Positions 650-35,681 of a stretch of 37,879 nucleotides of DNA are shown one piece after another. Below the pieces are notes generated by a model. That model saw only the letters and a list, made by a program, of their open reading frames with translations. It searched no databases and had not been told where the DNA came from. Numbering within the stretch: position 1 is the first letter of the stretch; every line of letters starts with the position of its first letter. The position numbers and the translations under genes were made by a program. Source of the DNA: an uncultured Lentimicrobiaceae bacterium (GTDB lineage: Bacteria > Bacteroidota > Bacteroidia > Bacteroidales > F082); the NCBI GenBank assembly GCA_964470665.1, contig CAYYDS010000002.1:1-37879 (forward strand), given 5' to 3'.

Positions 650-911
650 CTACAACTATAAATTTATAGGGGTCACAACAAATTACTTTAAACGGAAGTA
701 ATCAATTAGTTACAATAGAAAGCGAGAATATATTAACTGATATTCCATATAGTACAGAAAAAGCTATCGTAGAAATTACTGGACTTGATAGTTGAGAGGT
801 AAATTTACCAGCTAATTATGTAGGATAATAACTAACATATAATTAGTATAAACAGATATACTGAAGAAATAGATAATTCGATTAAACAAAAAATCAAATT
901 TTTAAAATCAC

Positions 912-1310
912 ATGTTAGAATTTTTAATTAATAATTGAGTGCAATTATCTACTACTTTAGGTATTATAATAGCCTTCTTTGTCGAGCGGAAGAAACGGCG
1001 TGCAGAATCAGATGAAGCCCAATCTTCCGCCTTAACAAAGATGCAGACAGCGTATGATAAATTTGTCACAGACAGTAATAAAAAAATAGATGAATTATTA
1101 GAAAGAATTAAAGAATTAGATAAACTAGTTGAGATATATAGAAAAGAAAAAAATGAATTGACTGAGAAAATAGAAAGTTTAGAAAAACAATCAACCGATG
1201 ACCAAAGAACAATAGAGGAATTTGGTGAAAAAATAAAGTCTCAAGATAGATTAATCAAAGAACAAAAACGAAGAATAGGTACTTTAGAAGAACAAATAAA
1301 AAGAATATAG
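912..1310 (+). CDS. single-pass membrane protein with long coiled coil (spanin-like or holin-regulator-like; lysis-module candidate), 132 aa
   Basis: ATG 912, with in-frame TAA at 903 upstream. Track ORF 939..1310 begins just after in-frame TGA 936-938. With TGA=Trp the N-terminus is MLEFLINNWVQLSTTLGIIIAFFVERKKRR (hydrophobic helix plus positive cluster), followed by heptad-like E/K-rich sequence. TAG stop 1308-1310. Confidence 0.7.
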
Positions 1311-1312
1311 TT

Positions 1313-1606
1313 ATGATATTTGAAATAATTAAATTAGTCGGTTGAAGTATTGTGTTAATACTATTAGGTATTTTTAAAGGAACAATTCCTCTTAAACATT
1401 TTTATTCAATGCTTTGTTCTACCATTTTAATGCTATATGTTATTATAGATGGTATAATTAGTCATCAGATTTACGATTTATATGTGCGAGATTTTGGCAA
1501 TATAGCTATAATTATAACCTTTATTTTTTATATATTTAATTATTCTAAAGAATTTGATTGAATAGAGGATTATAAAGCTGGTAAAAAAGGATTAAAAATT
1601 GATTAG
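1313..1606 (+). CDS. small 3-TM membrane protein (class I holin-like), 97 aa
   Basis: ATG 1313 two bases after the previous stop. In-frame TGA at 1343-1345 and 1559-1561; TAG stop 1604-1606. Three hydrophobic segments (LVGWSIVLILLGIF, MLCSTILMLYVIIDGII, GNIAIIITFIFYIF) and a charged C-terminal tail. Confidence 0.65.
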
Positions 1607-1628
1607 ATATATTCCCCTTTTAAAACAA

Positions 1629-1835
1629 ATGCTTATGAACAAAAAACAAATTTTAAGATCAATTGCACTATTTTTCATAGTGTTCATTCCATTTATCGCA
1701 GGGATAGTCTGTAAAGAACTATCAAACAATCTTTTTGAAATTATAATTGGTTGGTCAACAATGGCTATCCAAGTAGGAGTAGGAATATGATTGTTACGCA
1801 AAGATCCTAAAAAGATTAAAGAAAAAACTGAATAA
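1629..1835 (+). CDS. small 2-TM membrane protein with basic C-terminus (class II holin-like), 68 aa
   Basis: ATG 1629 (alternative TTG 1599 overlaps the previous gene). In-frame TGA 1788-1790; TAA stop 1833-1835. TM1 SIALFFIVFIPFIAGIV, TM2 LFEIIIGWSTMAIQVGVGIWLL, then RKDPKKIKEKTE. Confidence 0.65.
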
Positions 1836-1914
1836 TTCAGTTTAGATTAAAAAGTTGCAGATTAAATATAATTTTTCAATTAAAAAGATAATTTATAATA
1901 AATTTTTAGATTTA

Positions 1915-2691: not shown

Positions 2692-3735
2692 ATGTCAAAT
2701 GGATTAGATTTCTACGGATTAGATGATCAATTACAATCTATAGTAGAGCCAACTGAAAAAATTCCCGTTCAAGAGGGAACAATAGAACCACATATTACAG
2801 ATCCTCAGATACAATACGATGATGACGATTTAATCGGAAGAGTATTATTATCAAAAGGAATTTCAGATTTTAATAAAATAAAATTTGAAAATGATAATGG
2901 TGAGATAGAAGAAAAAAACTGAAATGATTTATCAATAGATGAACAATTCAATATAATAAATTCTTCAGATGTAGATCAAGATTACGGGTTAGACGATGAT
3001 GAGATTAATCTTATTAATGTAATAAGATCAAATAATATGACAGTTGATGAGTTTATCAACGTTGTACGAAATCAATCTCAAACTCAACCAGAAGAACTCG
3101 ACCAATTCACAATAGACCAATTTTCGGATGATGAATTGTACGTAACAGATATGCAAGCAAAATTTCCTGATTTAACAGAAGAAGAAATTTTAAATTCTTT
3201 AGAACATGATAAATCAAATTCGGCATTATTTGATAAAAAAATGAATAATTTGAGAAATGAATACAAAGAATTAGAAAGATTGAAAATAGAACAGGAATTG
3301 GCTGAACAAGAAGCAGCTTTTCAAGAACAGCAAGAAATATTTCAAAATTCTGTAGTTGAAGCTCTTAATAATATTAATACTAGTACTATTGGAGGTTTTC
3401 AATTAGATTTGAGCGATAATGATATGCAAGGGATTTACGATTTTCTAACTCAAACAGATAGAGGAAACGTAAGATATTTAGCAAAAGCGTTAAATGATCC
3501 TAATACTCTTGTTAAGATGGCATGGTTTGCTATTAAAGGAGATGAAGCATTACAGGATATTAAAAACTATTATAGTAGAGAAATATCATCTGTGGCTAAA
3601 ACAAATTACGAAAAAGGTCTCTTAGACGGTAAGAAACAACAATCTGGAACTTTATTCGTAACAAATAATAAAAATAATAATAAAAGTACAGGTGGAGTAA
3701 AATCCCACAGTACTCTTTTTAAAGACGACTTTTAA
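2692..3735 (+). CDS. acidic coiled-coil protein, scaffolding-protein candidate, 347 aa
   Basis: Track ORFs 2692..2922 and 3037..3735 share frame 1 and are joined through TGA 2920-2922 with no TAA/TAG between. Very acidic N-terminal half, coiled-coil stretch (EYKELERLKIEQELAEQEAAFQEQQEIFQ). Lies directly upstream of the capsid-sized gene. Confidence 0.55.
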
Positions 3736-3749
3736 AATTAATAAAAATT

Positions 3750-5171
3750 ATGTTAGTAGCAAATTTTACAACCGTAAGACCAACAATGGGTGATACCCGT
3801 ACATATGCAGACTTTACTAAATTCTTGGGTGATAAACCTACTAGATTAGGTATTGTAGCTAGTATGTATGAAGATAATACCCTTACATATTTAACTGAAT
3901 CTCTTAAAAACATTGTGTACATGAGTGCAAAATCTGACGAAAAATATCGTAAGATTAATTCAATGTATTTTGAGTGGGAAGTTAAAAATGCTCAGATTAA
4001 AAGAATTGCATTTGCAGCAGTCCCTACTGATAATGGAGCAAATGGTTCTGAAATAGATATGGTATTTACTGAAAATTATTTCCAGAAATACGATATATTT
4101 AAAATAGAAAAAACTAGACAACAGTGTATTGTTCTTTATAGACCTATTAGAATTAGTGACGCATCTTGGAAAGTAACTGTACGTTTGATCGATAATGATT
4201 ATCGTAGCGTGCTTGATACATCTGGTTGTCAAATTGGTGATACTTGTGTATTCCAGTCAGTAGCTATGCCTGAAATGCATGAAGAAGGTTACGCAAAATA
4301 TCAAAGTTCTATCGAAAGACATCGTGGTTATATTACTACCCATCGTGTTGATGATAGTTGGTCAGCAGTTTATGCAGCTACCGAAGATATGTTTGTTCGT
4401 ATAGCAACAGGAAGTGATGAGAAAGATAAAAAAGAATCTGTATATCAAATGAATAGTAAAGAAAAAGATTTGTTAGACAATTTCATGTTCGTTAAGAATA
4501 GTGGACTTTTGTTTAATAAAACTAACGTAGATGCTAATGGTAGAGTTACTATTAGTGATCCCGATACTAATCGTCCTATTTACATTGGTGATGGTGCTAT
4601 TCCTCAGATTGAAAGATTTGCTGATAAATATGGTTATAATAACTTAACCGTAGATGTACTTCAGACAGTTCTTTCTATGATGAATGGAAAATCTGAGTCT
4701 CCTACTGGAAACCATTACGTATTTTTATGTAATGATAAATTCTGGACTGACGCTCAGAAGAAACTTCTCTCTTATCTTTCAGCATTTCAAGCTGACGGTA
4801 CATATTTGTGGTCAAAGGTAGAAAACGATTATATCAAAGTAGGTGCTACTTTTGATTCTTATGTTTTCGGTGGAAATACAATTAGTTTCAAAGTAGATAG
4901 AACTTATTCTAGAGAATATGGTTCAAATAAAGGATTCGCTACTTGCTTTAACTTAACTAAAGATAAAACTTCAGGAACTCCTGCTATTGAAATGTTTACA
5001 TTGAAAGGTGGAGACTTTATTACAAATAAGTTTGTAGGTGTTGGGGGTTATGATGGTTTGACATCAGGTTTAGTTTCTAGTGCTGTTGCTGGATCAAAAC
5101 TTATATATTGGGGATATAGCGGAATCGCCGTTTACAATCCTTATAGATCATTTATACTTTTTGAAGTGTAG
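3750..5171 (+). CDS. major capsid protein candidate, 473 aa
   Basis: Uninterrupted 473-aa ORF. Less biased codon usage; 6 TGG and 0 TGA. Tandem TAG-TAA stops, followed by a strong hairpin terminator. Positioned after the scaffold-like gene. Assigned from size, position and expression signals, not from a recognised motif. Confidence 0.55.
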   Translation: MLVANFTTVRPTMGDTRTYADFTKFLGDKPTRLGIVASMYEDNTLTYLTESLKNIVYMSAKSDEKYRKINSMYFEWEVKNAQIKRIAFAAVPTDNGANGSEIDMVFTENYFQKYDIFKIEKTRQQCIVLYRPIRISDASWKVTVRLIDNDYRSVLDTSGCQIGDTCVFQSVAMPEMHEEGYAKYQSSIERHRGYITTHRVDDSWSAVYAATEDMFVRIATGSDEKDKKESVYQMNSKEKDLLDNFMFVKNSGLLFNKTNVDANGRVTISDPDTNRPIYIGDGAIPQIERFADKYGYNNLTVDVLQTVLSMMNGKSESPTGNHYVFLCNDKFWTDAQKKLLSYLSAFQADGTYLWSKVENDYIKVGATFDSYVFGGNTISFKVDRTYSREYGSNKGFATCFNLTKDKTSGTPAIEMFTLKGGDFITNKFVGVGGYDGLTSGLVSSAVAGSKLIYWGYSGIAVYNPYRSFILFEV

Positions 5172-18226: not shown

Positions 18227-20284
18227 ATGTCACAAGATAATCAACATTCTTTTGCAAAACTTAGTCAAGAAAATAGACAGAAATATTTTAAAATATTACA
18301 AAAATTATCTAAACCGTACACATCTTATAGTGGTGATGTTTCAGAGTTTTTAAATCAATTTCCTGAATATATAAATAATCCGTCAAAAGCTTGACAGGAT
18401 ATACGAACTTATTTTAGTGATTTAATTCCACAGAGTAATAATCCACTTAATCCAACACCAACTCTTCATAATTCAATTTCAAGTTTAACGGATACAAATA
18501 ATCAATCTTCAACAAATCAACAAAATATAAATATAACCAAAAATATTAATTCAAATTTAACAGTAAATGACTCACCAACATATGCGTCAGGCACAAATTC
18601 AAATATTTTTATTCCAATACCAGAGATTTTGTTAAATATAAACCCAAATAAAAACATTATAGAAGAACCATCGTCTTTTGATTTTATGAGTATACCATTA
18701 AAGACTGATTCAAATATTGTCTCTTTAACAAATGATAAACCAAAAAACGATTTTAATTCTTTTACAGTAAATCTTAATCCTGGTTTTAAAGTTCCTAGTT
18801 CTACAGCAAATACAAATTTTAATAATATAGAGTATCGAAAAATGCGTTGAGATAGTAATAGTTCATTACCAAAAATTACACCTATTACTCCACCAACTAC
18901 GTTATCTCAGACAATTGTAGCAACAAACTCTGCTATAAAATCAGGAAAAGATTTACTCAAAGAATTAAAAAATGCTAAAAGTGCTGACGCAGCTAAATCT
19001 GCTGACGCAGCTAAATCTGCTAAAGCAGAAATGCGAAATGCATTAGGTGGAATGGCTATAGGAGCAGCTACTAGCATATTAGATTCTGTTCATGACACAA
19101 CTATTGATAATAGTAATAGTAAACTATCTAATCAAATATATGATCAAATTACTAATCAGGTTGCTATGTTAGGTCCCTGAGGAATGGCTGGAGCCGCAGC
19201 AATGCAAGCCATACAACACACAGGAGGAAATGTAGATGCTTCAGAGGGATTAGGTACTGGTAATGATATAGGTAATTTTGTTATGAGTATGATACCTGGT
19301 GCTGGTTATTTTGTTCCTCGTACTACAAAATATACGGTTAATCCTGAATTAGAAAGAGCTTCTGGTTTTTCTGGAACAGCTTCTGACGCTAGAACAGCAG
19401 TAAGTAATGCTGGAGGTAATATCTTATTTGGTAGACAACAAGCAGAAGAAAATATTCAACAAGCAATGCGAGATGAAAAATATATATCAAATCTAACTAG
19501 ACGAAATAAAAATTTACAATCTCAAACAGGATCTTATGAAATTAGAAATAGAATAGCTAGACAAGGAGGAATGAGTAATGTAGCAGTTGGTAAACAAGGT
19601 ATGAAAATTAAATCTAAACCTGTTCAACAAAACGAATATGTTACTTTTTATAAATCATTACCTGCAAATTTACAGACAAATTCTGGGTTTAATATGTACG
19701 AATATTGAAATGATTTAGGAAAACCTAAAAATTTCAGTTTAATAAAAGATTATTTTAAAATAGTTAACAACAAATATGAACCATATAGTACTAATTTTAT
19801 AGATGGTAAATATAAATGATATGTTGATCCAAAATCTGAGAAATTTACAAATGAAGTAAATTGATATAATTCTGATGATCCAGAAGCTGTTTCATTTAGA
19901 AATGATGGATGAAGAATAAACAATATGGATAATCAATATTATTATATGTTGGATCTACCTATATATAAAGAAGGAGGAGCAATAAATGTTTTACCCGATG
20001 GTGCGTTACACGCTAGATTACACAATATGGATATAGAAGGAATAACCAAAAAAGGAATACCTGTTGTGGATAATGATAATAATCAACAAGCCGAAATCGA
20101 AAGAGAAGAATGAGTAATTCATAAAGAATTTACGGATTATTTAGAAAAGGCTTATAAAGAATGTAAAAAGTGCAAAGAAAAAGAAAAAATAAATAAATGA
20201 ATAGAAGTAGGAAAAAGAGTTGTTGAAGAACTTCTATTTAATACTCAAGATAACGTATCATTAATCGAAAAAATAGAAGTATAA
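18227..20284 (+). CDS. internal/ejected-protein-like protein with Gly/Ala-rich hydrophobic segments, 685 aa
   Basis: ATG 18227. Frame 2 joins track ORFs 18629, 19184 and 19925 through about 9 TGA codons. TAA 20282-20284. Hydrophobic G/A-rich stretches (ALGGMAIGAATSIL, GPWGMAGAAAMQAI, FVMSMIPGAGYFVP). C-terminal motif YKEGGAINVLPDGALHARLHNM. Confidence 0.8.
18983..19018 (+). repeat. 2 x 18-nt perfect in-frame tandem repeat GCTGACGCAGCTAAATCT (ADAAKS x2)
   Basis: Copies at 18983-19000 and 19001-19018, followed by a partial copy (gctaaagca). Confidence 0.9.
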
Positions 20285-20862
20285 TGGAATTAGAAGTAAA
20301 CGGAAAAGAATACGATGTTAAGGTAGCTAAAACAGACGAAGAAAGAGAAAAAGGTTTATCTGATATTAAAAGTTTACCAAAAGATGAAGGAATGTTATTT
20401 GTATTTGATACTCCAGAAGAAGTATCTTTTTGAATGAAAGATACACTTATTCCATTAGATATTATATTTATAGACAAAAATAAAAAAGTAATAAGAACGT
20501 ATGCCGGTATTCCTAATGATGAAACTTTTTTAACAGAAGATAATGTATTATATGTTTTAGAAGTAAATATTAATTCAGGCATAATTAGTGGTGATGAAAT
20601 AGAATTTGAATTAGATGAAGAATCCGATGATGATAATAAATATGTTTTAAAAATATTAAATCAAGATGGATCTGTTCAAATGAACTTAGAAGGAGGAGAA
20701 AGAATTTTTAGTAGAAAACATTCAAAACGAATTATAGAGTTAGCTAAAAAAGCTGATCTATCTAAATCAGATAAAGATTACAGATCATTAGGAAGAACTA
20801 TTTTAAAGTATATTGATATTCAAGAAAATGCCGATCCCGAATATGTAGATATTAAAAAATAG
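20284..20862 (+). CDS. DUF192-domain protein with acidic/basic C-terminal extension, 192 aa
   Basis: ATG overlaps the previous stop (TAATG). N-terminal ~105 aa carry the DUF192 (COG1430) pattern: EREKGLSD...DEGMLFVF...FWMKDTLIPLDIIFID...YVLEVN...GDEIEF. The W of FWMK is TGA 20431-20433. TAG stop 20860-20862. Confidence 0.8.
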
Positions 20863-26897: not shown

Positions 26898-29800
26898 ATG
26901 GATAATACTTTTGAACACGATTGGTTAGCATCCAAAATACATAATGACGATAATAAAAGTGATTGACAATTAAAATTACGCACTTTCGGTATAAACAAAA
27001 ATAATATTGGTTTATTACCGAAAGATGCTTATTTGAAAATGCCACAGGTAAGAGAATTAAGTTTATTTGTAGATACTGATGGAAATTTCAATCAAAGTAA
27101 GTTTGACAAATATTATGATGTTGCTTTAAAAGAATTTAACGAATTTATTGAAGATGATACATTAGATGAAGTTTTTTCTAAAGGAATATTATTTGATTAT
27201 TATCGTTTACCTTTAGGTGAACAAAAAGTATATTTGCGACCTTCTGTTAATCCTGAATTAAAAACAAAAGGTATTGGTAGATTGTTCGGAGAAGGTGCTC
27301 CTACAAGAAGTATGCGTGAAGCTGCTCAAACTCAAAAAGTATTTAATACAGAAACAAATGATTGAGAAGATTATTCTCCTAATGATTTAGGTATAAAGTA
27401 TTTTTTCAAGCAACCTTTAATTGAAGCTAGGTGAGAAGAAACAGGAATAGAAATTACTCCTTCTGGACAACAAAAGATACATTATGCTGGTGATTGAAAA
27501 CAAAATGAAAAAGGAATGCCCTTTTATGAAACACTTGGTAATAGAGATGTTGCTAATAAAGGCATTTTACATGTTGCCGACATTTTAACAGAAGATGGAT
27601 CTAAAGCTAATAAATTTGATGTATTTGATTCAGACGATATAGATAAATCTATTGGATCTGTAGTAGCTAAATCATTATTATCTGTACTTCCTTATTTAAT
27701 ACCCTATGTTGGTAGAGTTTATGGTTTAGTACAGGCTTCTACTTTTCTAACACAAGCACTCTCTGTATTCGGTAAAGCTATTATTCCAGATGAAGAGTTA
27801 GGAATATGAAAAGCAATGAACAAAGTGGATTCTGCTGTTAGAAAGTTTGATTATTCTACATCAGATAAAGGAAGTGGTTCATTTTTTACAGTTGAATCAT
27901 TAGGTAATATGTTACCTGAAATTGTTGGTCAATTATACCAACAGAGAATGATAGCTAAGTTACCTAAATTATTAGGTATGGATAAAGCAGCAAGTAGAGA
28001 AGCTGCTGAATTTGTTAATAAAAATTCAAAAACATATCTTTCTAAGTATGGGATAACTTTAGAAGAAGCTATTAAAACCAACAAAATTGATCCGGTCTTT
28101 TTTGAAGAATATTTAACTGGTATAAATTCTGTAACAAAATTAGCTAACGAAAGATCTAGAAAACTAGCAGAAAATGGATCTAAACTATATATGGCTTTTA
28201 CTCAATCATCAGATATGTATGATACATTTAAACAAAATGGTTATAGTGATTTAGGTACGGCTGTTGGTATGATGGGAGCATTATATGGGTTTCATCGTAT
28301 CTTTGCATCAAGTTTGGGTGATGTTGCATTAAGTGGTTTAGGGTTAGACGACACTAATAAACTAGTAAAAGCTTTATCCGCTGATATGATAGCTAAAACA
28401 GGAACTAAAGAATCTTTAGAAGCTGCCGCAAAAGCTGGATCATCTAAATTCATAAAAGCTGTAAATAAATTTGGAAATACTATGCAAAAGAATTTTGTTA
28501 AAATACTTGATAACAAAGAAGGTGTTTTAGCAAATATGGTTAAAGAGTCACTTGAAGAGGTTTCTGAAGAAGCTTTACAAGATGCTATATATTTTGGTAT
28601 GGAAAAATTAGACTGAGCTTTTAAAAAATTAGGGATTACTGAAAAACAAGGTAAACAAAAGTTTTTAGAATCAAGTCCTTTCCAGCGTTATTTAGCGTCT
28701 GCTGTTGGTGGTGCTATTGGTGGTGCTATGTTTCAAGGTATTGGGAAATTAGATGATATTATTCATAATGAATATCAAAAAGTACAAACTTTTAATGAAG
28801 CATTAGATAATAATCTGTATGGTGTTTTAATGGATCACATTAGAAATAACAAAACTGATGAAATATTAGCTACTATTGATAAAGAAGTAAAAAATGGTAA
28901 AGTTGCTTCTAAAAACTTGTCTTTTGATAAAAAAACAAAAGATACATTCGATGTTACCGATGATCCAAACAAATCACAAAATAAAGTATTAGGTGATATG
29001 TTAAGGCAATATGTAACATTAATGGATGTTATTATTAATAAAGGTGGTTATAGACTATCTGATAACGATATAGTTAATAGTGCTATAGATAAAGATGCTC
29101 TTGTTGAGGCTTTATCAGTTAAGCAAGATTTCTTTGATAACTCTTCTATTAGTGAACACATAATGTCTGATTTTACTTCTAATTTAGCAAATTATACTAA
29201 GAAAAGAGCAGAAGAATTAACTTGGACCGATGAACAAAAACAAGCGAATAAAGGATTACCTTTAGAATCTGAAATTTATAAACAACAATTAGATGATTTA
29301 TTAAGTGGTTCTAAAAAAGCGGATTACTTAATAAATTTACCATATTGATTTAATCCAACAATCAATGATAAATTGTTTGCTATGAATAAAGAAGTATTAG
29401 CTTATTCAATGTATGATCGTAATTATCAACAACTGAGTGTAGTTGAAACTCAAAAAGTTGATGAAATGTTTAATTTATATTCTTCTAATAAACAAGAATT
29501 TCATAAAAAACATGGTTTAAAGTTTTATAGAAGTATGTTAGAATTATCTAAGAATTTTGTTAATTCTAACAATTATAGCGAACAATTAATTAATTTTAAA
29601 GAAGAATTTAATAAATTAACAAAAGAATATAAAACCAAAGCTGTTGAAAAATTATTAAATTTTGATACTTTTAAAACACAATTTTTAAAAAATAAAACAG
29701 AATTAGAATTTTTTAATGAAAATCCTGATATTTTTAAATATTTAACTATAAAAGGTGATGTTATACCTGACGCTGAAAAAATAGAAGCTGTTGATAAATA

Positions 29801-32800
29801 TATTAAAGCAGAAAGCAGAAACATGGATAATGCTCAAACAAACAATAATGTTTCTGACTTTATCAAAACGAAAATAAATACACATAGTGGATTATCAGTT
29901 GATACAGATAGTGTGTTATTTGAGGATGATTTATTAATAGAATATTTAAATAAAGTAAAGGAAATAGTTGATAAACACCAGTATATTGATAAAGATACTA
30001 AGGAATATTTAACATATTTAAGAGAAACATATAATTCTCATAATCCTAATTTATTAGTTGACAAAATATTAAATAAAATTGTTGATGATTTAAAACCATC
30101 TTTCAATGTAATAGATTCTTTTAATTTAACTGAAGAAGATAAAAATAAAACGATAGAATCTATAAAACAATACAAAAAAGATTTAGAAAGACTTAGTAAA
30201 TTACCTACACTGAAGCCTAATGTAGCTACAGCCTTTTTTAACATATTGCCTTCAGCTTGACATGAAGATCAAACTAGTCTTAGGAAAGTAGATCCTTTTA
30301 GTGTATTGGGTGATTTTATTGAGTTAGTAGATCAGGATCCAAATATAATAAATGATCATACTTCTCCAGACGGAATTGCTTTAAATTATTTACTTGATGA
30401 AAATAGTTGAGAAAATATTGATAGTAATTTTACAGATTTAACTCCCATAAATAAATTAAAATATTTAAAATATAAAATTGAATCTGATTGAGAAGCTCAA
30501 GTTGTTGAAAATATTAACGTGTTAGAAGGGATAAGTGTTTTATTAGAAAGTGGTGATGATGCAAAAATTCAACGAGCAACTAAGTTTATTAATGACAATA
30601 AGGATACTTGAAAAGATATTGTTGATATTGATTTAGACCCTAACGTAAACATATTAGATAATGTAAACACTCTTATAAAAGCATTTGAGTCTGAATTAAA
30701 TGATACTGAGTATGATAACACAAAAGCATTATTAACTACATATGATTTTACACCTGATTTTAAAACAAAAATAGACAGCGATATAAACAATATAGATAGA
30801 CTATTAGATATATTAGAAAAATCAAGTATTGATTATGAAGATTTTAATGAAATAAATGTATTATATAATGAAGTTAAATATGGTATTGAAAAAAATACTA
30901 TAGTAGATCCTAATAATCCCCTCGATAATATTACTAATGTTTATAAATTAAATGATATTCTTGCTGATTATTATGATACAAAAATTCAAGTTTTTAGAAA
31001 CTTAGTAAATATAAACGACTTAACAAACGCTAATAACAATATAGCGACTATATTATCTACTTACGGGATTAAAGAAGATGGTAACAATAAAAAAATATCT
31101 GATTTAAAATTAGCTGAAAAAATAAGATTTATATCTTTAAATTTACCTTCTTTATTAATAAGTAATTTTACTACTCCTAATCCTGTTGTTTTTGATAATG
31201 CTTTGTTAAAACCAAAAATGGATCAAGTAATAAACGAAACTTATGATAAATCTAAAGAAATAGTTGATATTATATCATCTATAGATAATAATGTAAGTGT
31301 AGATAGTAGTCTTTATGATTTTACAAATACTGTAACTACTAAATTATTTGGTGAAAATATTAATGAAATTATTAGTAAAGAACAACTTAAATTTTTAGAT
31401 GATCCTAACTATCAGTATGAGCCAGAAGAAGGGTTGATTGATCGATTAAGATTAATGCACGATAGTCTTTTGACAGTATCTAAAATAATGAGCTTGTTTA
31501 TTAATGATGGTCCAACTTTAGGAGAAGGTTTAAATTATGTATCTATAATGAAAAACTATTTCAAGGATTATGATATGAAATCATTAACTAGTAAAGAGTT
31601 TGAAATATATGCTACAAATACTGACGCTTTATTAAGAAAAATAAATCAACTTATTGATAACGGTAAAGGTAGAGCTGAAACAGAAATAGCGGACAATGAA
31701 ATTGTTTGAAGTAAAGGAACAAATAGTATTATAACTGCGTTTATCAAAGGAGAAACTGGAGACAAATTAAAAAATATAAAAACTATTAGCGGTGATTCTT
31801 TTATAGAATTAGTAATAAAAGAGTTTGTAAACATTGATAATATTGATAACTTGCTGAGTAATCCTGATGAAGATCATATAAAATTATTTTTTGATTTTTT
31901 AAGTGCTGTTAATAAAGTATTTTCAGAATTAGACGATACTAATAAAGAATATGTTGTTAAATCATTTGTTAATTCTAATGTAATAACAAGTGAAAAAGAT
32001 TTAATGACAACTGTTAGTACTGTTTTTAACAAAACTACAACGGCTGATGATATACACATTAATTTACTAATTCATCTGTTAATGGCATCATCAGCATATG
32101 ATATTAAAAAGTTTAATAATGAATATAAAACCGCTTTGAACAATGGTTTAAAACATACTTTATTTTTTCAACAATATTTAGCTTCTTTTGAAAATGTTGC
32201 ATTTACTATAAATAATCCAGCATTTGAACATTATTTATCTTCTGATGATGATACTCGTTCTTTTAAACCAAATAATATTTCAAAGAAAATGATGTTAACT
32301 ACTGGTGTAGCCGGAAGTGGAAAATCTACAGCTACTCCAGAAGCAACAAATGCTATTTTACAACAAATGATTGTAAAAAACACAGAAGGTAAAGATCGTA
32401 AACTAAAAGTTTGATATTCTTCTCCTTCTGATTATACCTTAACTTTAAAAAATAATGTAAAAGGTATTAATAAAACTGAAGCTGAATCTTCTAAACAAGA
32501 ACCAAATTATTTTTCAAGAACAGAACTATTTAGTAAAATTTTTGGAGAAACAATTTATAATGAAGCATTACAAGCATATGAACGAAAAGAAACTGAATTT
32601 TTAACTAAAGATCATATTACTAAATTAACAGATGTAGAATTACCTGATGTTATATTGGTAGACGAGTATACTTGATTTCATAATGATGAAATGTGAGCTT
32701 TAGAAAAATTAGGAATTACTGTACTAATGTTTGGTGATAATAAACAAGATGGATTACGAGAAAGAGACAATAATTTATATTTTCAGGGAGCTAATTTTGA

Positions 32801-35681
32801 ATCTCCAGAAATAGTATTGCGTTTACGTAGTAATAATATGGCTATGAATCAAGCCAACAAAACACTATATAATATTGTTAGAGAATATAATGAAACTGAA
32901 AATCCGCGGGAGGGAAGAAAAAAAGTATTTGAAAAATTAAAACAATTATCATTTATACATTTCTATAATGTTGATAAAACAATATTAAATGGTGTAGATG
33001 TTGTACCTAATGATTCTTCTTTACACGATAAAGCAAAATCTTTAATGAGTGGATTAAAACCAGGTGAAAAAATAACAGTTATTACAAATAAAAGAAGTGG
33101 ATGATTTGATAATTTAAGAGGTGAATTATTAACAATATTACCTCCAGAAAACACAAGAGGTGCTGAAACAGCTTATTCTATTATAGATATAGACTGACAA
33201 TTAATTAATGGTGAAGATAAATCTAATACTTTTGCGGCAAGATTATATACTTTAGTAAGTAGAGCGAAACACGGTGTTATTTTGGTTAACAATAGCCAGT
33301 ATACTTTACCTTCTAACGAAATATCATATCGTATTAGTTATGATGAAAAATTTACTACTGATGATTTAAATAAACTTAAAAATCATATGTTAAATGTAGT
33401 GTTAAAAGATGCTAAAGTAGATCCTACTAAAAAAGAAAATAAAGAAAATAAACAGCAAATTACTAAAGAAGCTAGTGAAGAAAAAAAACTTCAAAAACTA
33501 AGTAATGAAATATTAAACTTATTAAAAAAGGAAGATGCTCCAGAACAAAAAAATATAGCTACTCCAAACAGAATTGCTATTAATTTATCAAGTTTAGATA
33601 AAACTTTCATGTGTGCTAATAGTATAGATTTATATGACTTATTGAACTATAATTCAGAATCACAAGATAAATTATCTAATTTTGCAAAATTTTCTGATTT
33701 TTTCTTACAAAGTAATCCTGATAAAATTTATGATAGTTTTTTATTAAATTTTATAAAAGAAACGTTTTCGGCTGACGATATAAGTAATATTGATGAAAGT
33801 ATTATTGAATCGTGAGATGATTTTAAAAAATTATTAACTTTTAAATTAATATATGATAAGAAGTTAAATAAATATTTTTTAGCTGTTACTATTAATTTTA
33901 AGGGTATAGAGGGATTTACAACAACTAAACATTCCTGAACTATCTATTTAGGTGAACTTTATAAAGAATTATCACAGAATGATGTTAATACTAATACAAT
34001 AAAACAATATTTAAACCAAAATGGTGAATTTATAATAGATGATTATTATAATGAAAATAATAAATTTATTAGAAAAAATACTTATGGGGAAGGTAATCCA
34101 CAAGAAGTAAATGACTTTACAACAATATATTGAAGAAATAAAATTGGAGATGTTAGATTAACCCCCGGTTCTGAAGGTTTTGTAAATCATTTTTCTGGAA
34201 GAACTGTTTTATTTGTAGATAATAATTTCTGAAGAGCTGATCAAAATAAAAATATTTTAGAATATTATTTAGAAGAACTACAAAATAATCAAAAAAGTAC
34301 TGATTTAGTTAGCAAATCATCATATATGTTTATGTTAAATGAAGTTGGTATTACACCATCTGAATTTATGAAAAATTATGCGAAATCAGATAGATCTATT
34401 ATAAAAAACGTAAATATGGGAAAATTTATATTGTCCTTATATTTATTAAAACAAGATTTAGACAATGATATTATAACTTTAGATAGTAGTGAGAAAGACT
34501 TAGCTATTGAATTAATTAATAATTATTTTATTACAGATAGGAGATTACATTCATTAACGGATATAACTATTTCTAGTCGTGTTACAACACCCATTGAAAA
34601 TTCAGATTTAATAGATACTGAAAAAAGAGGAGCTTCTCTTTCTTCATCTCAACGAAATTCTTGATATTACATAGAACAAAATAAGGATAATTATAAAGAT
34701 TCAATAAAACATGTAATTAATATTTTAAACAACGGTGCTTTTAACGATGGTGATTTAAATAAATTTATTGATGACTTTTTAGGACGATTAAAGGATTTTG
34801 ATTCTATACAGTATAGAAGTAGTGTACTTTTAGCTAACGCTCCCGCTAATTCAAATTCAAACTACTTAAATTTCTTACAATTATTAACAAAAGACGATGT
34901 AATTAGTATTCTTTTAAGTAAGTTTAATATTGATAAGGATATTAAAAAACAGCGATATGATATAAAAACATTATTAGAAAATGGTGTAGTTCCAATATTT
35001 TTTAAATTAAATTCTATGTTATCAACCTATGTTGATATGTTTAATAATAATGTATATTTTAAAGAAATTGTAGAAAAAAGTTGAGAAAGATATTTTTTTC
35101 CAGGAGGATATTTTGTTACAGGGTTAAGTAAAAAAAGAACAAGTGACACACATATTAATGGGTTTTATAAAGCAACAGATGAGATTGTTAAAAATGCTAG
35201 AGTACCTGGTTTTCTTAAATATCAAAATATTTATTTAGACGGATTAGATATTGTTAAGAAAATGAACAATGGTATTGTTTCACAAACTCCTCCTTCTATT
35301 CCTACTAATACTAATAAATCTACTACTAAGTCTGTTAAATCAAAACCTCAGTTAAAAAATACTTCTCAGAAAAAGTCTAAGATTAATCAGAATATTTCTA
35401 CTATTATTCCAAGTTCTCAATCTAATTCTCAATCTTCTACTAATCTATCTACTATTCCGACTTCTACTCAACCTCCTGTTCCTGTTTCTACTTTAAATTC
35501 TTCCACAATAGAAGTTATAGACTATGATGATAAAATACAATATAATATGGATGGTGAGAATTATATTCGTGTAGGAAATAATTGAAAATATAAAAAAGGT
35601 AAAACTGTAACCGATCAATCAATTATAGATGCGTTAAATAAATATCAAGAAGAAAATAAACCAGAAGACTGTAAACCTTAA
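26898..35681 (+). CDS. giant multidomain protein, 2927 aa, with hydrophobic N-terminal third, internal SF1-helicase-like ATPase domain and S/T/P-rich C-terminal linker
   Basis: ATG 26898. Ten track ORFs (27033, 27516, 27816, 28728, 29373, 31203, 31851, 32727, 33282, 34326, 35262) are all frame 0. I read every gap codon by codon, including the 943-nt gap 30261-31202, and found only TGA (about 24 in total). TAA 35679-35681. Confidence 0.85.
32290..33290 (+). other. SF1 (RecD/Dda/alphavirus-like) helicase-type P-loop NTPase domain inside the 2927-aa ORF
   Basis: Walker A GVAGSGKST (32304-32330). Walker B ILVDEY (DE at 32661-32666). Motif III-like MFGDNKQDG (32727-32753). Motif V-like ENTRGAETAYSIIDID. 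Motif VI-like YTLVSRAKHGVILV (33246-33287). Canonical order and spacing. Confidence 0.65.

What the first reader, a model, noticed from the sequence alone, without database searches (positions are those of the whole stretch)
912..1835. Three consecutive small membrane proteins (lysis-cassette-like), each carrying in-frame TGA (codons 9 and 11 in the first two)
The genes are 912-1310 (N-terminal TM plus long coiled coil), 1313-1606 (3 TM plus charged tail) and 1629-1835 (2 TM plus basic tail). They are packed end to end and have spanin/holin-like architectures. The first TGA is at codon 9 in gene 912 (936-938), codon 11 in gene 1313 (1343-1345) and codon 54 of 68 in gene 1629 (1788-1790). Without TGA suppression only non-functional stubs would be made, so membrane-active proteins would be locked off until suppressor activity appears. 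I did not recognise an endolysin next to them.
Basis: partly seen in the sequence, partly recalled or inferred. Interest (0 to 1): 0.65.

Follow-up and report, generated by a model that had tools for sequence, protein, structure and literature searches.

The report
Holin-type lysis genes, recoded crAss-like phage
The three small membrane-protein genes are real, and the first two are a conserved pair that in related phages sits directly in front of the cell-wall-degrading enzyme, so they are most likely lysis (holin-type) genes; their in-frame TGA codons are simply this phage's normal tryptophan codon, used in almost every gene of the contig, not a special lock on these genes.

Summary
Observation confirmed. 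The window is a whole 37.9-kb contig of a crAss-like phage (Crass_capsid MCP, muzzle protein) that reads TGA as Trp. There are 110 in-frame TGA in 17 of 24 genes, and they align with W in standard-code relatives. The three genes carry no excess of TGA (4 seen, 2.7 expected).

The first two genes form a rare pair absent from Pfam, PHROGs and NCBIfam. In every relative with enough context the pair lies directly upstream of an endolysin, of three different enzyme types. Relatives use the standard code or read TAG as a sense codon, evidently Gln.

Gene 2 is a three-helix, class-I-like holin candidate. Gene 1 has one N-terminal TM helix, a basic cluster and a long helix. Its predicted topology is N-out/C-in, so it is not spanin-like. 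Gene 3 (2 TM) is an orphan sitting where relatives have the endolysin, and no endolysin or tRNA lies in the contig.

The 'TGA lock on lysis' idea is a published genome-wide hypothesis (Borges et al.) and is neither specific to these genes nor testable here. Verdict: a new member of a known kind, of modest interest.

The parts
912..1310 (+). Gene 1 (132 aa). It has an acidic N-terminus (MLEF), a TM helix at about residues 10-24, the basic cluster ERKKRR and then a long charged helix. It is the partner of the holin candidate, a bitopic protein with predicted N-out/C-in topology.
   Evidence: ORF in code 4. Hydropathy. Homologues P0008-P0014 are 32-40% identical. AF2 of homologue P0008 gives helix 2-30 plus helix 34-128. 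Ten of 10 natural variants are synonymous.
936..938 (+). TGA, codon 9 of gene 1, read as Trp.
   Evidence: It aligns with W in 3 of 4 family members: TGG in the standard-code L053 and in the TAG-recoded L055.
1313..1606 (+). Gene 2 (97 aa). It has three TM helices and a charged C-terminal tail, which makes it a class-I-like holin candidate.
   Evidence: Hydropathy. AF2 pLDDT 83 with helices 2-20, 27-50 and 57-88. Homologues P0003 (44% identity, E 1e-16), P0004 and P0006 each lie next to an endolysin wherever the contig reaches that far.
1343..1345 (+). TGA, codon 11 of gene 2, read as Trp.
   Evidence: W is invariant in all four family members and is TGG in the standard-code relatives.
1559..1561 (+).
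   Evidence: It aligns with W in P0003.
1629..1835 (+). Gene 3 (68 aa). It has a basic N-terminus, two TM helices and a basic tail, giving a predicted N-in/C-in hairpin. It is lineage-specific and sits where relatives have the endolysin.
   Evidence: Hydropathy. No similar sequence in the related loci or GenBank phages and no family match. The same 68-aa call is made in five other assemblies.
1788..1790 (+). TGA, codon 54 of gene 3. The codon 42 Trp of the same gene is TGG (1752-1754).
650..911 (.). Non-coding leader of the cassette. It contains a mosaic breakpoint at about 839 and an indel-rich stretch at 845-909.
   Evidence: L052 and L048 diverge completely upstream of 839. There is no ORF of 30 aa or more.
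1825..1843 (+). 8-bp hairpin whose loop is the TAA stop of gene 3. It may mark the end of the cassette transcript (weak evidence).
   Evidence: RNAfold gives -6.1 kcal/mol. A 151-nt AT-rich gap follows before gene 1987.

Best explanation
The window is part of the late (structural) region of a crAss-like phage that decodes TGA as tryptophan. Genes 912-1310 and 1313-1606 are a conserved pair, 2 nt apart here and overlapping by 4-11 nt in relatives, which suggests translational coupling. Together they form the membrane-permeabilising (holin) part of the phage's lysis system.

The 97-aa protein has three TM helices, a predicted N-out/C-in topology and a charged cytoplasmic tail. It is the likely hole-former, needed to let a signal-less endolysin reach the cell wall.

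The 132-aa protein is anchored by one N-terminal helix, with a long charged helix predicted to lie in the cytoplasm. It most likely acts as co-holin or timing regulator. The same architecture is seen in the mycobacteriophage LysF1b class.

Gene 1629-1835 is a lineage-specific two-helix membrane protein, probably a second holin- or antiholin-like accessory. It occupies the slot where relatives encode the endolysin, so this phage's endolysin must lie outside the contig.

The TGA codons are ordinary Trp codons at conserved Trp positions. Any block on translation before a phage suppressor tRNA appears would apply to most of the genes on the contig (17 of 24 carry TGA), not to these three in particular.

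Shown: the gene structure, TGA = Trp, the conservation, and the synteny with endolysins. Inferred: the holin activity, the topology, the roles of genes 1 and 3, a standard-code host and the timing effect.
For: Phage identity:
- The MCP carries PF23898 Crass_capsid and the 1493-aa protein matches the crAss muzzle family at E 2e-23.
- The MCP is 58-65% identical to human-gut phages.

Genetic code:
- Reading TGA as sense gives ORFs up to 2927 aa, against 473 aa otherwise.
- TGA aligns with W 37 times and with G never in relatives L001 and L002.
- No gene on the contig ends in TGA.

Lysis role:
- A full HMMER scan found three homologues of gene 2, and a profile search found seven relatives of gene 1 besides near-identical copies of the query.
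- L053: 129 aa, 95 aa, then PF00959 lysozyme.
- L054 and L057: 137-140 aa, 102 aa, a small ORF, PF08291 Peptidase_M15_3, then a protein with lipobox LSSC and a C-terminal TM.
- L056 and L058: 136 aa, 102 aa, PF11860 Muramidase, then a 189-aa protein with a signal sequence.
- That makes three unrelated muralytic enzymes behind one conserved pair, none with an N-terminal hydrophobic segment by reading of their sequences. This is the classic signature of a holin.
- In L056 the cassette lies between a tail-fibre-like gene and an acidic, scaffold-like gene. This is the same position as in the window.

Real genes:
- Ten of 10 natural substitutions in gene 1 are synonymous.

Structure and precedent:
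- Searches support the helices.
- A functional precedent exists for a single-TM N-out/C-in holin-like protein with a basic cluster and a charged C-terminal domain (PMC13056207).
Against: - No endolysin follows the pair in this phage. None of four tested types is detectable anywhere in the 37.9 kb.
- Neither family matches any curated holin family in Pfam, PHROGs or NCBIfam.
- Foldseek against BFVD gives only non-significant hits, E > 1.
- The family is tiny: four lineages, mostly on contigs of 1-4 kb. The synteny therefore rests on few independent loci.
- Topology comes from charge distribution only.
- Gene 3 has no homologues, so its role is a guess from architecture.
Confidence: 0.68

Rival explanations
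1. The TGA codons at codons 9 and 11 are an evolved, gene-specific safety lock on a spanin/holin cassette, so that these toxic proteins are made only once suppressor activity appears.
For: The TGA lies very early in genes 1 and 2, so RF2 termination would leave peptides of 8 and 10 residues. Borges et al. report preferential recoding of lysis genes in crAss-like and Agate phages. The opal-recoded Zeta crAss-like phage Lera has TGA in its holin and in three of four lysin genes. The homologous cassette in the TAG-recoded relative L056 carries 10 in-frame TAG.
Against: TGA is in 17 of 24 genes and makes up 83% of all Trp codons. The three genes show no excess (P = 0.28; 4 of 5 Trp codons against 83% overall). 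The early TGAs sit at Trp residues already conserved, as TGG, in standard-code relatives. Position therefore reflects protein architecture, not an added lock. Other genes also have early TGA: codon 12 of the muzzle gene and codon 23 of the 2927-aa gene. The spanin assignment fails on topology and on the missing lipoprotein partner. No suppressor tRNA is on the contig.
Confidence: 0.15
2. The three proteins are membrane proteins unrelated to lysis, for example superinfection exclusion, an anti-defence or injection-blocking function, or membrane anchoring of assembly. They merely neighbour endolysins in relatives.
For: There is no adjacent endolysin in this phage and no match to known holin families. 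The cassette lies between tail-fibre-type genes and head genes, next to a recombination hot spot, where accessory 'moron' genes are common.
Against: The pair-then-endolysin order is kept across four lineages, with three enzyme types and three genetic codes. The genes overlap by 4-11 nt in relatives. The endolysins appear signal-less by reading and need a holin, and no other holin candidate lies between them and the pair.
Confidence: 0.12
3. The host itself uses genetic code 4, so TGA has no regulatory meaning at all and the phage simply matches its host.
For: TGA is used throughout the contig and no suppressor tRNA is seen in 37.9 kb. GC is very low, 24-31%, as in code-4 bacteria.
Against: Close relatives of the same phage group use the standard code or TAG recoding. 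The lysis module's relatives use TGA as a real stop. By established knowledge, known TGA=Trp bacteria (Mycoplasma and its relatives, reduced endosymbionts) mostly lack a peptidoglycan wall, yet this module is tied to peptidoglycan hydrolases. The MCP uses only TGG, 6 of 6 (P = 2e-5), which suggests TGA decoding is costly. The contig is only part of a genome probably larger than 95 kb, so the tRNA may lie elsewhere, as in Lera.
Confidence: 0.07

Closest known systems
Class I holins (lambda S105 type)
   Same: Gene 2 is small (95-102 aa in the family). It has three TM helices, a predicted N-out/C-in topology and a charged C-terminal tail. In relatives it lies immediately upstream of a soluble endolysin.
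   Different: There is no sequence or significant structural similarity to any described holin family. No dual-start motif is evident. In this phage no endolysin follows.
LysF1b-type single-TM holin-like proteins of mycobacteriophages (PMC13056207)
   Same: Gene 1 is 129-140 aa in the family. It has a single N-terminal TM, several basic residues right after it, a highly charged C-terminal domain and a predicted N-out/C-in topology. It is paired with a second small multi-TM protein in a lysis cassette.
   Different: No sequence similarity was found between the two groups, and the phage group and presumably the host differ. The partner here has 3 TM rather than 2 or 4, and gene 1 precedes its partner. 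Function is untested.
i-spanin (lambda Rz type)
   Same: An N-terminal TM followed by a long coiled-coil-forming helix. One family member gives a weak PHROG hit to 'Rz-like spanin' (E 0.003).
   Different: The charge distribution predicts the helix to be cytoplasmic, not periplasmic. There is no o-spanin or lipobox ORF embedded, overlapping or adjacent. Relatives have separate spanin-like genes downstream of the endolysin. The gene lies upstream of the holin rather than after the endolysin.
Stop-codon-recoded gut phages: opal-recoded crAss-like phages such as Lera, and the Borges et al. clades
   Same: TGA is read as Trp in late structural and lysis genes of a low-GC crAss-like phage. Relatives use the standard code or are TAG-recoded.
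   Different: Only a 37.9-kb late-gene fragment is available. Suppressor tRNA, RF1/TrpRS and standard-code early genes cannot be shown. The MCP is TGA-free.
Class II holins / pinholins (phage 21 S68)
   Same: Gene 3 is 68 aa with two TM helices, a predicted N-in/C-in topology and a basic C-terminal tail. TM2 is rich in G, A, S and T.
   Different: TM1 is strongly hydrophobic and not SAR-like. No SAR endolysin was found, no homologues exist and no dual start is evident.

Membership tests
Holin (functional class), gene 2 / 1313-1606 | Small protein with at least one TM helix and a hydrophilic, charged C-terminal tail | tested here: met
   97 aa. Three hydrophobic segments. AF2 helices 2-20, 27-50 and 57-88. 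The tail is SKEFDWIEDYKAGKKGLKID.
Holin (functional class), gene 2 / 1313-1606 | Encoded next to the endolysin gene | tested here: inconclusive
   Met in all relatives with enough context (L053, L054, L057, L056, L058). Not met in the window itself, where the next gene is a 68-aa 2-TM protein and no endolysin is on the contig.
Holin (functional class), gene 2 / 1313-1606 | Membership of a described holin sequence family | tested here: not met
   No Pfam, PHROG or NCBIfam match. Foldseek BFVD E > 1.
Holin (functional class), gene 2 / 1313-1606 | Lethal, energy-poison-triggerable membrane hole that releases the endolysin | not testable with these tools
   This needs expression and lysis assays.
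Two-component spanin, gene 1 / 912-1310 | i-spanin topology: N-in TM with a periplasmic coiled-coil domain | tested here: not met
   The family has an acidic N-terminus (M-x-E-F) and a D/E-R/K-K-K-R cluster after the TM. By the positive-inside rule the helix is cytoplasmic. This is a prediction only.
Two-component spanin, gene 1 / 912-1310 | Cognate o-spanin: a small lipoprotein with a lipobox Cys, embedded, overlapping or adjacent | tested here: not met
   A lipobox-pattern scan of all three + strand frames of 881-1900 found nothing, in any frame. The only candidate Cys, C28 of gene 3, is in context GIVC, which does not fit the pattern.
Code-4 (TGA=Trp) recoded phage | Long ORFs are restored only when TGA is read as sense, and TGA is never used as a stop | tested here: met
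   Maximum ORF is 2927 aa against 473 aa. There are 110 in-frame TGA. Stops are 19 TAA and 4 TAG.
Code-4 (TGA=Trp) recoded phage | TGA aligns with Trp in standard-code homologues | tested here: met
   37 W, 9 F and 0 G among the aligned positions. W9, W11 and W83 of the cassette.
Code-4 (TGA=Trp) recoded phage | Phage-encoded suppressor tRNA(UCA), and early genes in the standard code | tested here: inconclusive
   ARAGORN finds no tRNA on the contig. The contig is partial and no early (replication) gene module was recognised on it.
crAss-like phages (Crassvirales) | Crass-type major capsid protein and muzzle protein in a collinear structural block | tested here: met
   PF23898 on the 473-aa MCP. 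PF25731 crAss_MUZ at E 2e-23. Collinear with MT835470 and MT835492.
Pinholin / class II holin, gene 3 / 1629-1835 | Two TM helices with a SAR-like, weakly hydrophobic TM1, and a SAR endolysin partner | tested here: not met
   Two TM helices are present, but TM1 is the strongly hydrophobic one (KD up to 3.0). No endolysin is found.

The most novel reading that the evidence does not exclude
Genes 1 and 2 define a new two-component holin system of crAss-like phages. A bitopic N-out/C-in protein with a roughly 95-residue cytoplasmic helix works obligatorily with a 3-TM protein. In this lineage the adjacent endolysin has been replaced by a 68-aa two-helix protein. Lysis here would then use either a distant, unlinked endolysin or a small membrane protein that attacks the envelope without a muralytic enzyme.
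Probability: 0.15. Interest if true: 0.55.

Novelty: new member of a known kind. Interest (0 to 1): 0.35.

Why it matters
Few lysis genes of crAss-like phages have been characterised experimentally. This result gives a concrete, testable holin candidate pair that no curated family covers. It also shows the same lysis module in three genetic-code states: standard, TAG as sense (evidently Gln) and TGA=Trp. That is a natural comparison set for testing whether stop-codon recoding really times lysis. It corrects the idea that the in-frame TGAs are a special feature of these genes. Finally, the TGA-free major capsid gene hints that reading TGA as Trp is costly for the most abundant protein.

Tried and rejected
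- tblastn of the three proteins against 46 related loci (the two GenBank relatives plus 44 IMG/VR loci; up to 10 kb, for L001/L002 20 kb, either side of the MCP) found nothing.
- Word-indexed searches of 5.8 billion proteins with genes 2 and 1 returned only near-identical copies. Only the full HMMER scan and the profile search found relatives.
- Degenerate-pattern scans with both family alignments found nothing in IMG/VR, JGI metagenomes or GTDB genomes.
- tblastn of family members and of gene 3 against GenBank phages found nothing meaningful.
- Pfam, PHROGs and NCBIfam gave only coiled-coil noise for gene 1 and nothing for genes 2 and 3.
- Foldseek of the gene 2 model against BFVD was not significant. 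Several top hits are named holin, but with E > 1.
- The sigma-70 promoter/terminator scan and the Bacteroides -7 motif TAnnTTTG occur at chance frequency.
- An exact look-up of the 160-aa upstream protein, meant to extend the contig, found no record.
A homologue was modelled instead.
- I guessed that genes 1987 and 2379 correspond to a gene pair in relative L002. tblastn did not support this.
- An embedded o-spanin was considered and rejected.
- A lipoprotein or u-spanin reading of gene 3 was rejected. Its Cys is in context GIVC and the mature part would be only 41 aa.

Full report
**1. What the window is**

The 37,879-base window is a whole metagenomic contig: the longest contig on record that carries gene 2's protein is exactly 37,879 bases. 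GC is 24-31% and every gene lies on the + strand.

- With the standard code the longest ORF is 473 aa. With TGA read as sense, ORFs of 1038, 1493, 1254 and 2927 aa appear.
- The 473-aa protein (3750-5171) carries Pfam PF23898 Crass_capsid.
- The 1493-aa protein matches the crassvirus muzzle family at E 2e-23.
- The block from the scaffold-like gene to the DUF192 gene is collinear with two unannotated human-gut phage records, MT835470 and MT835492. MCP identity to them is 58-65%.
- The 44 IMG/VR relatives come from contigs of up to about 212 kb, mostly 90-190 kb.

This is therefore the late structural region of a crAss-like phage. The same phage, at 99-100% identity, turns up in bioreactor and wastewater metagenomes from 2019 to 2025.

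**2. The genetic code**

- In-frame TGA occurs 110 times in 12,284 codons and in 17 of 24 genes.
- TGG occurs 22 times, so 83% of Trp codons are TGA.
- No gene ends in TGA: 19 end in TAA and 4 in TAG.
- In alignments with relative L001 (standard code) and L002 (TAG-recoded), window TGA positions face W 37 times, F 9 times and G never.

So TGA = Trp (code 4). Within the same phage group, relatives use the standard code or read TAG as sense. No tRNA gene is on the contig, and the contig is only part of the genome.

**3. The observation**

The three ORFs and the TGA positions are exactly as described. Other assemblies of the same phage carry the same 132, 97 and 68-aa gene calls.

Hydropathy and AlphaFold support the stated architectures.

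The genes are under purifying selection. All 10 natural substitutions seen in gene 1 across samples are synonymous. They fall at codons 6-40, on both sides of the TGA at codon 9. This also shows that translation runs through the TGA.

The TGA content is not special. For 297 codons 2.7 TGA are expected and 4 are observed (P = 0.28).

**4. What genes 1 and 2 are**

Word-indexed searches found only near-identical copies. The exhaustive HMMER scan of 1.84 billion representatives found three true homologues of gene 2:

| Protein | Identity to gene 2 | E-value |
|---|---|---|
| P0003 | 44% | 1e-16 |
| P0004 | 41% | 2e-10 |
| P0006 | 33% (alignment A2); 37% over matched stretches | 1e-4 |

A profile of gene 1 relatives found seven more proteins. 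Their contigs show one fixed arrangement:

| Locus | Code | Gene order |
|---|---|---|
| L053 | standard | 129 aa (gene 1-like), 95 aa (gene 2-like), PF00959 Phage_lysozyme, TM plus coiled-coil protein |
| L054 / L057 | standard | 137-140 aa, 102 aa, small ORF, PF08291 Peptidase_M15_3, protein with lipobox LSSC and C-terminal TM (unimolecular-spanin architecture) |
| L056 / L058 (L055 is a shorter copy) | TAG-recoded, GC 0.28 | tail-fibre-like gene, 62 aa, 136 aa, 102 aa, PF11860 Muramidase, 189-aa signal-bearing protein ending in Phe, acidic scaffold-like gene |

Several points follow.

- One conserved pair is followed by three unrelated muralytic enzymes, none of which shows an N-terminal hydrophobic segment in its sequence. 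The genes are tightly packed, with 4-11 nt overlaps in relatives and a 2-nt spacer in the window. This is the textbook context of a holin.
- In L056 the cassette lies between a tail-fibre-like gene and an acidic scaffold-like gene. The window's cassette is in the same position.
- The TGA-encoded W9 of gene 1 and W11 and W83 of gene 2 align with Trp in relatives. In the standard-code relatives those codons are TGG, and several of their cassette genes end in TGA. The early TGAs therefore mark conserved Trp residues at the start of the first TM helix. They are not an added lock.

**5. Likely roles**

*Gene 2.* It has three helices and a K-rich first loop. Loop 2 carries D56, R59 and D60, and the C-terminal tail is charged. 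This fits the class I holin pattern (N-out/C-in).

*Gene 1.* The family has an acidic N-terminus (M-x-E-F), one TM helix, then D/E-R/K-K-K-R and a single helix of about 95 residues.

- The positive-inside rule puts that helix in the cytoplasm, the opposite of an i-spanin.
- No lipobox ORF is embedded in or adjacent to the cassette.
- Relatives have their own spanin-like genes after the endolysin.
- The architecture matches the experimentally studied LysF1b class of mycobacteriophages. These are single-TM, N-out/C-in proteins with basic residues after the TM and a charged C-terminal domain, and they work with a second small TM protein (PMC13056207).
- I therefore read gene 1 as co-holin or lysis-timing partner. 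This is inference.

*Gene 3.* It has 68 aa and two TM helices, with basic N- and C-termini. No similar sequence was found in the related loci or GenBank phages and it matches no family. It resembles class II holins in outline only, because its TM1 is strongly hydrophobic and not SAR-like.

*The missing endolysin.* Gene 3 sits where relatives have the endolysin. None of four endolysin types (GH24 lysozyme, M15, Muramidase, DUF5675) is detectable anywhere in the window. Pfam scans of 20 of the window's 24 proteins (all but the 2927-aa ORF, the cut last ORF and the products of 167-649 and 2692-3735) found no muralytic domain either. The endolysin is presumably outside the contig.

**6. The 'lock' idea**

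Borges et al. proposed that stop-codon recoding keeps late and lysis proteins untranslated until a phage suppressor tRNA is expressed. They also reported that lysis genes are preferentially recoded (10.1101/2021.08.26.457843). Opal-recoded crAss-like phages with TGA in the holin and lysin genes have been described (PMC12386605).

In this window it would apply to most of the genes (17 of 24 carry TGA), and there is no enrichment in the cassette.

A standard-code host is likely but not shown. Relatives use other codes, and the module is tied to peptidoglycan hydrolases, whereas known TGA=Trp bacteria are mostly wall-less (established knowledge).

One new fact is relevant to that hypothesis. The homologous cassette is also recoded in the TAG-recoded lineage, with 10 in-frame TAG in four genes.

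**7. Verdict**

- Lysis module: yes for genes 1 and 2.
- Spanin: no.
- Gene-specific TGA lock: no.

The pair is a previously unannotated holin-type module, a new member of a known kind. Interest is modest at 0.35.

Noticed in passing
window 3750-5171 (also 1987-2373): The major capsid gene uses TGG for all six Trp codons and has no TGA, although 83% of Trp codons on the contig are TGA (binomial P about 2e-5). Gene 1987-2373 is likewise 0 of 3. In the TAG-recoded relative L002 the MCP does carry in-frame TAG. Possible explanations are selection against slow or leaky TGA decoding in the most abundant protein, or a recent import from a standard-code phage.
   Followed up: partly
window about 839; L052 1-2102: There is a mosaic breakpoint just upstream of the cassette. 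Contig L052 (ENA ERZ15185566) is 99.4% identical from window 839 onward. Upstream it carries two different tail-fibre-like genes with GC 0.36, 8 TGG and no TGA. This looks like a host-range module swapped in from a standard-code phage. L048 also diverges at 839, and 845-909 is rich in indels.
   Followed up: partly
L054 2323-2802; L057 1416-1877: After the M15 endolysin there is a protein of about 155 aa with a lipoprotein signal (LSSC) and a C-terminal TM helix. This is the architecture of a unimolecular spanin, as in phage T1 gp11.
   Followed up: no
L056 1905-2474; L058 1892-2461: After the Muramidase endolysin lies a 189-aa protein with an N-terminal signal-like segment and a C-terminal ...GIMWVF, which resembles an outer-membrane beta-barrel terminus. 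It is a candidate outer-membrane disruptor and carries 4 in-frame TAG.
   Followed up: no
L001 16303-16755; L002 3488-3745: Standard-code and TAG-recoded relatives carry a DUF5675 protein (E 3e-29) among the tail-fibre genes upstream of the scaffold and MCP. Its H..G..DTLGC motif recalls L,D-transpeptidase-type catalytic sites (from memory). It could be their wall-degrading enzyme. The window has none.
   Followed up: partly
window 1825-1843: A perfect 8-bp hairpin (AAACTGAA / TTCAGTTT) has the TAA stop of gene 1629-1835 as its loop. A 151-nt AT-rich spacer follows. It may be the end of the cassette transcript.
   Followed up: partly
window 26898-35681: A 2927-aa ORF has 24 in-frame TGA and a P-loop-like motif (GVAGSGKST). 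It was not scanned against family libraries. By position it may be a giant crAss virion or cargo protein.
   Followed up: no
window 20284-20862: A DUF192 (PF02643) protein (E 7e-26) lies inside the tail and cargo gene block. It is conserved in L001 and L002 at 49-51% identity.
   Followed up: no
window 939-941: The codon right after the TGA of gene 1 is GTG. A standard-code gene caller therefore predicts a 123-aa product starting there (P0002). Re-initiation could in principle give a nearly full-length protein without suppression.
   Followed up: no
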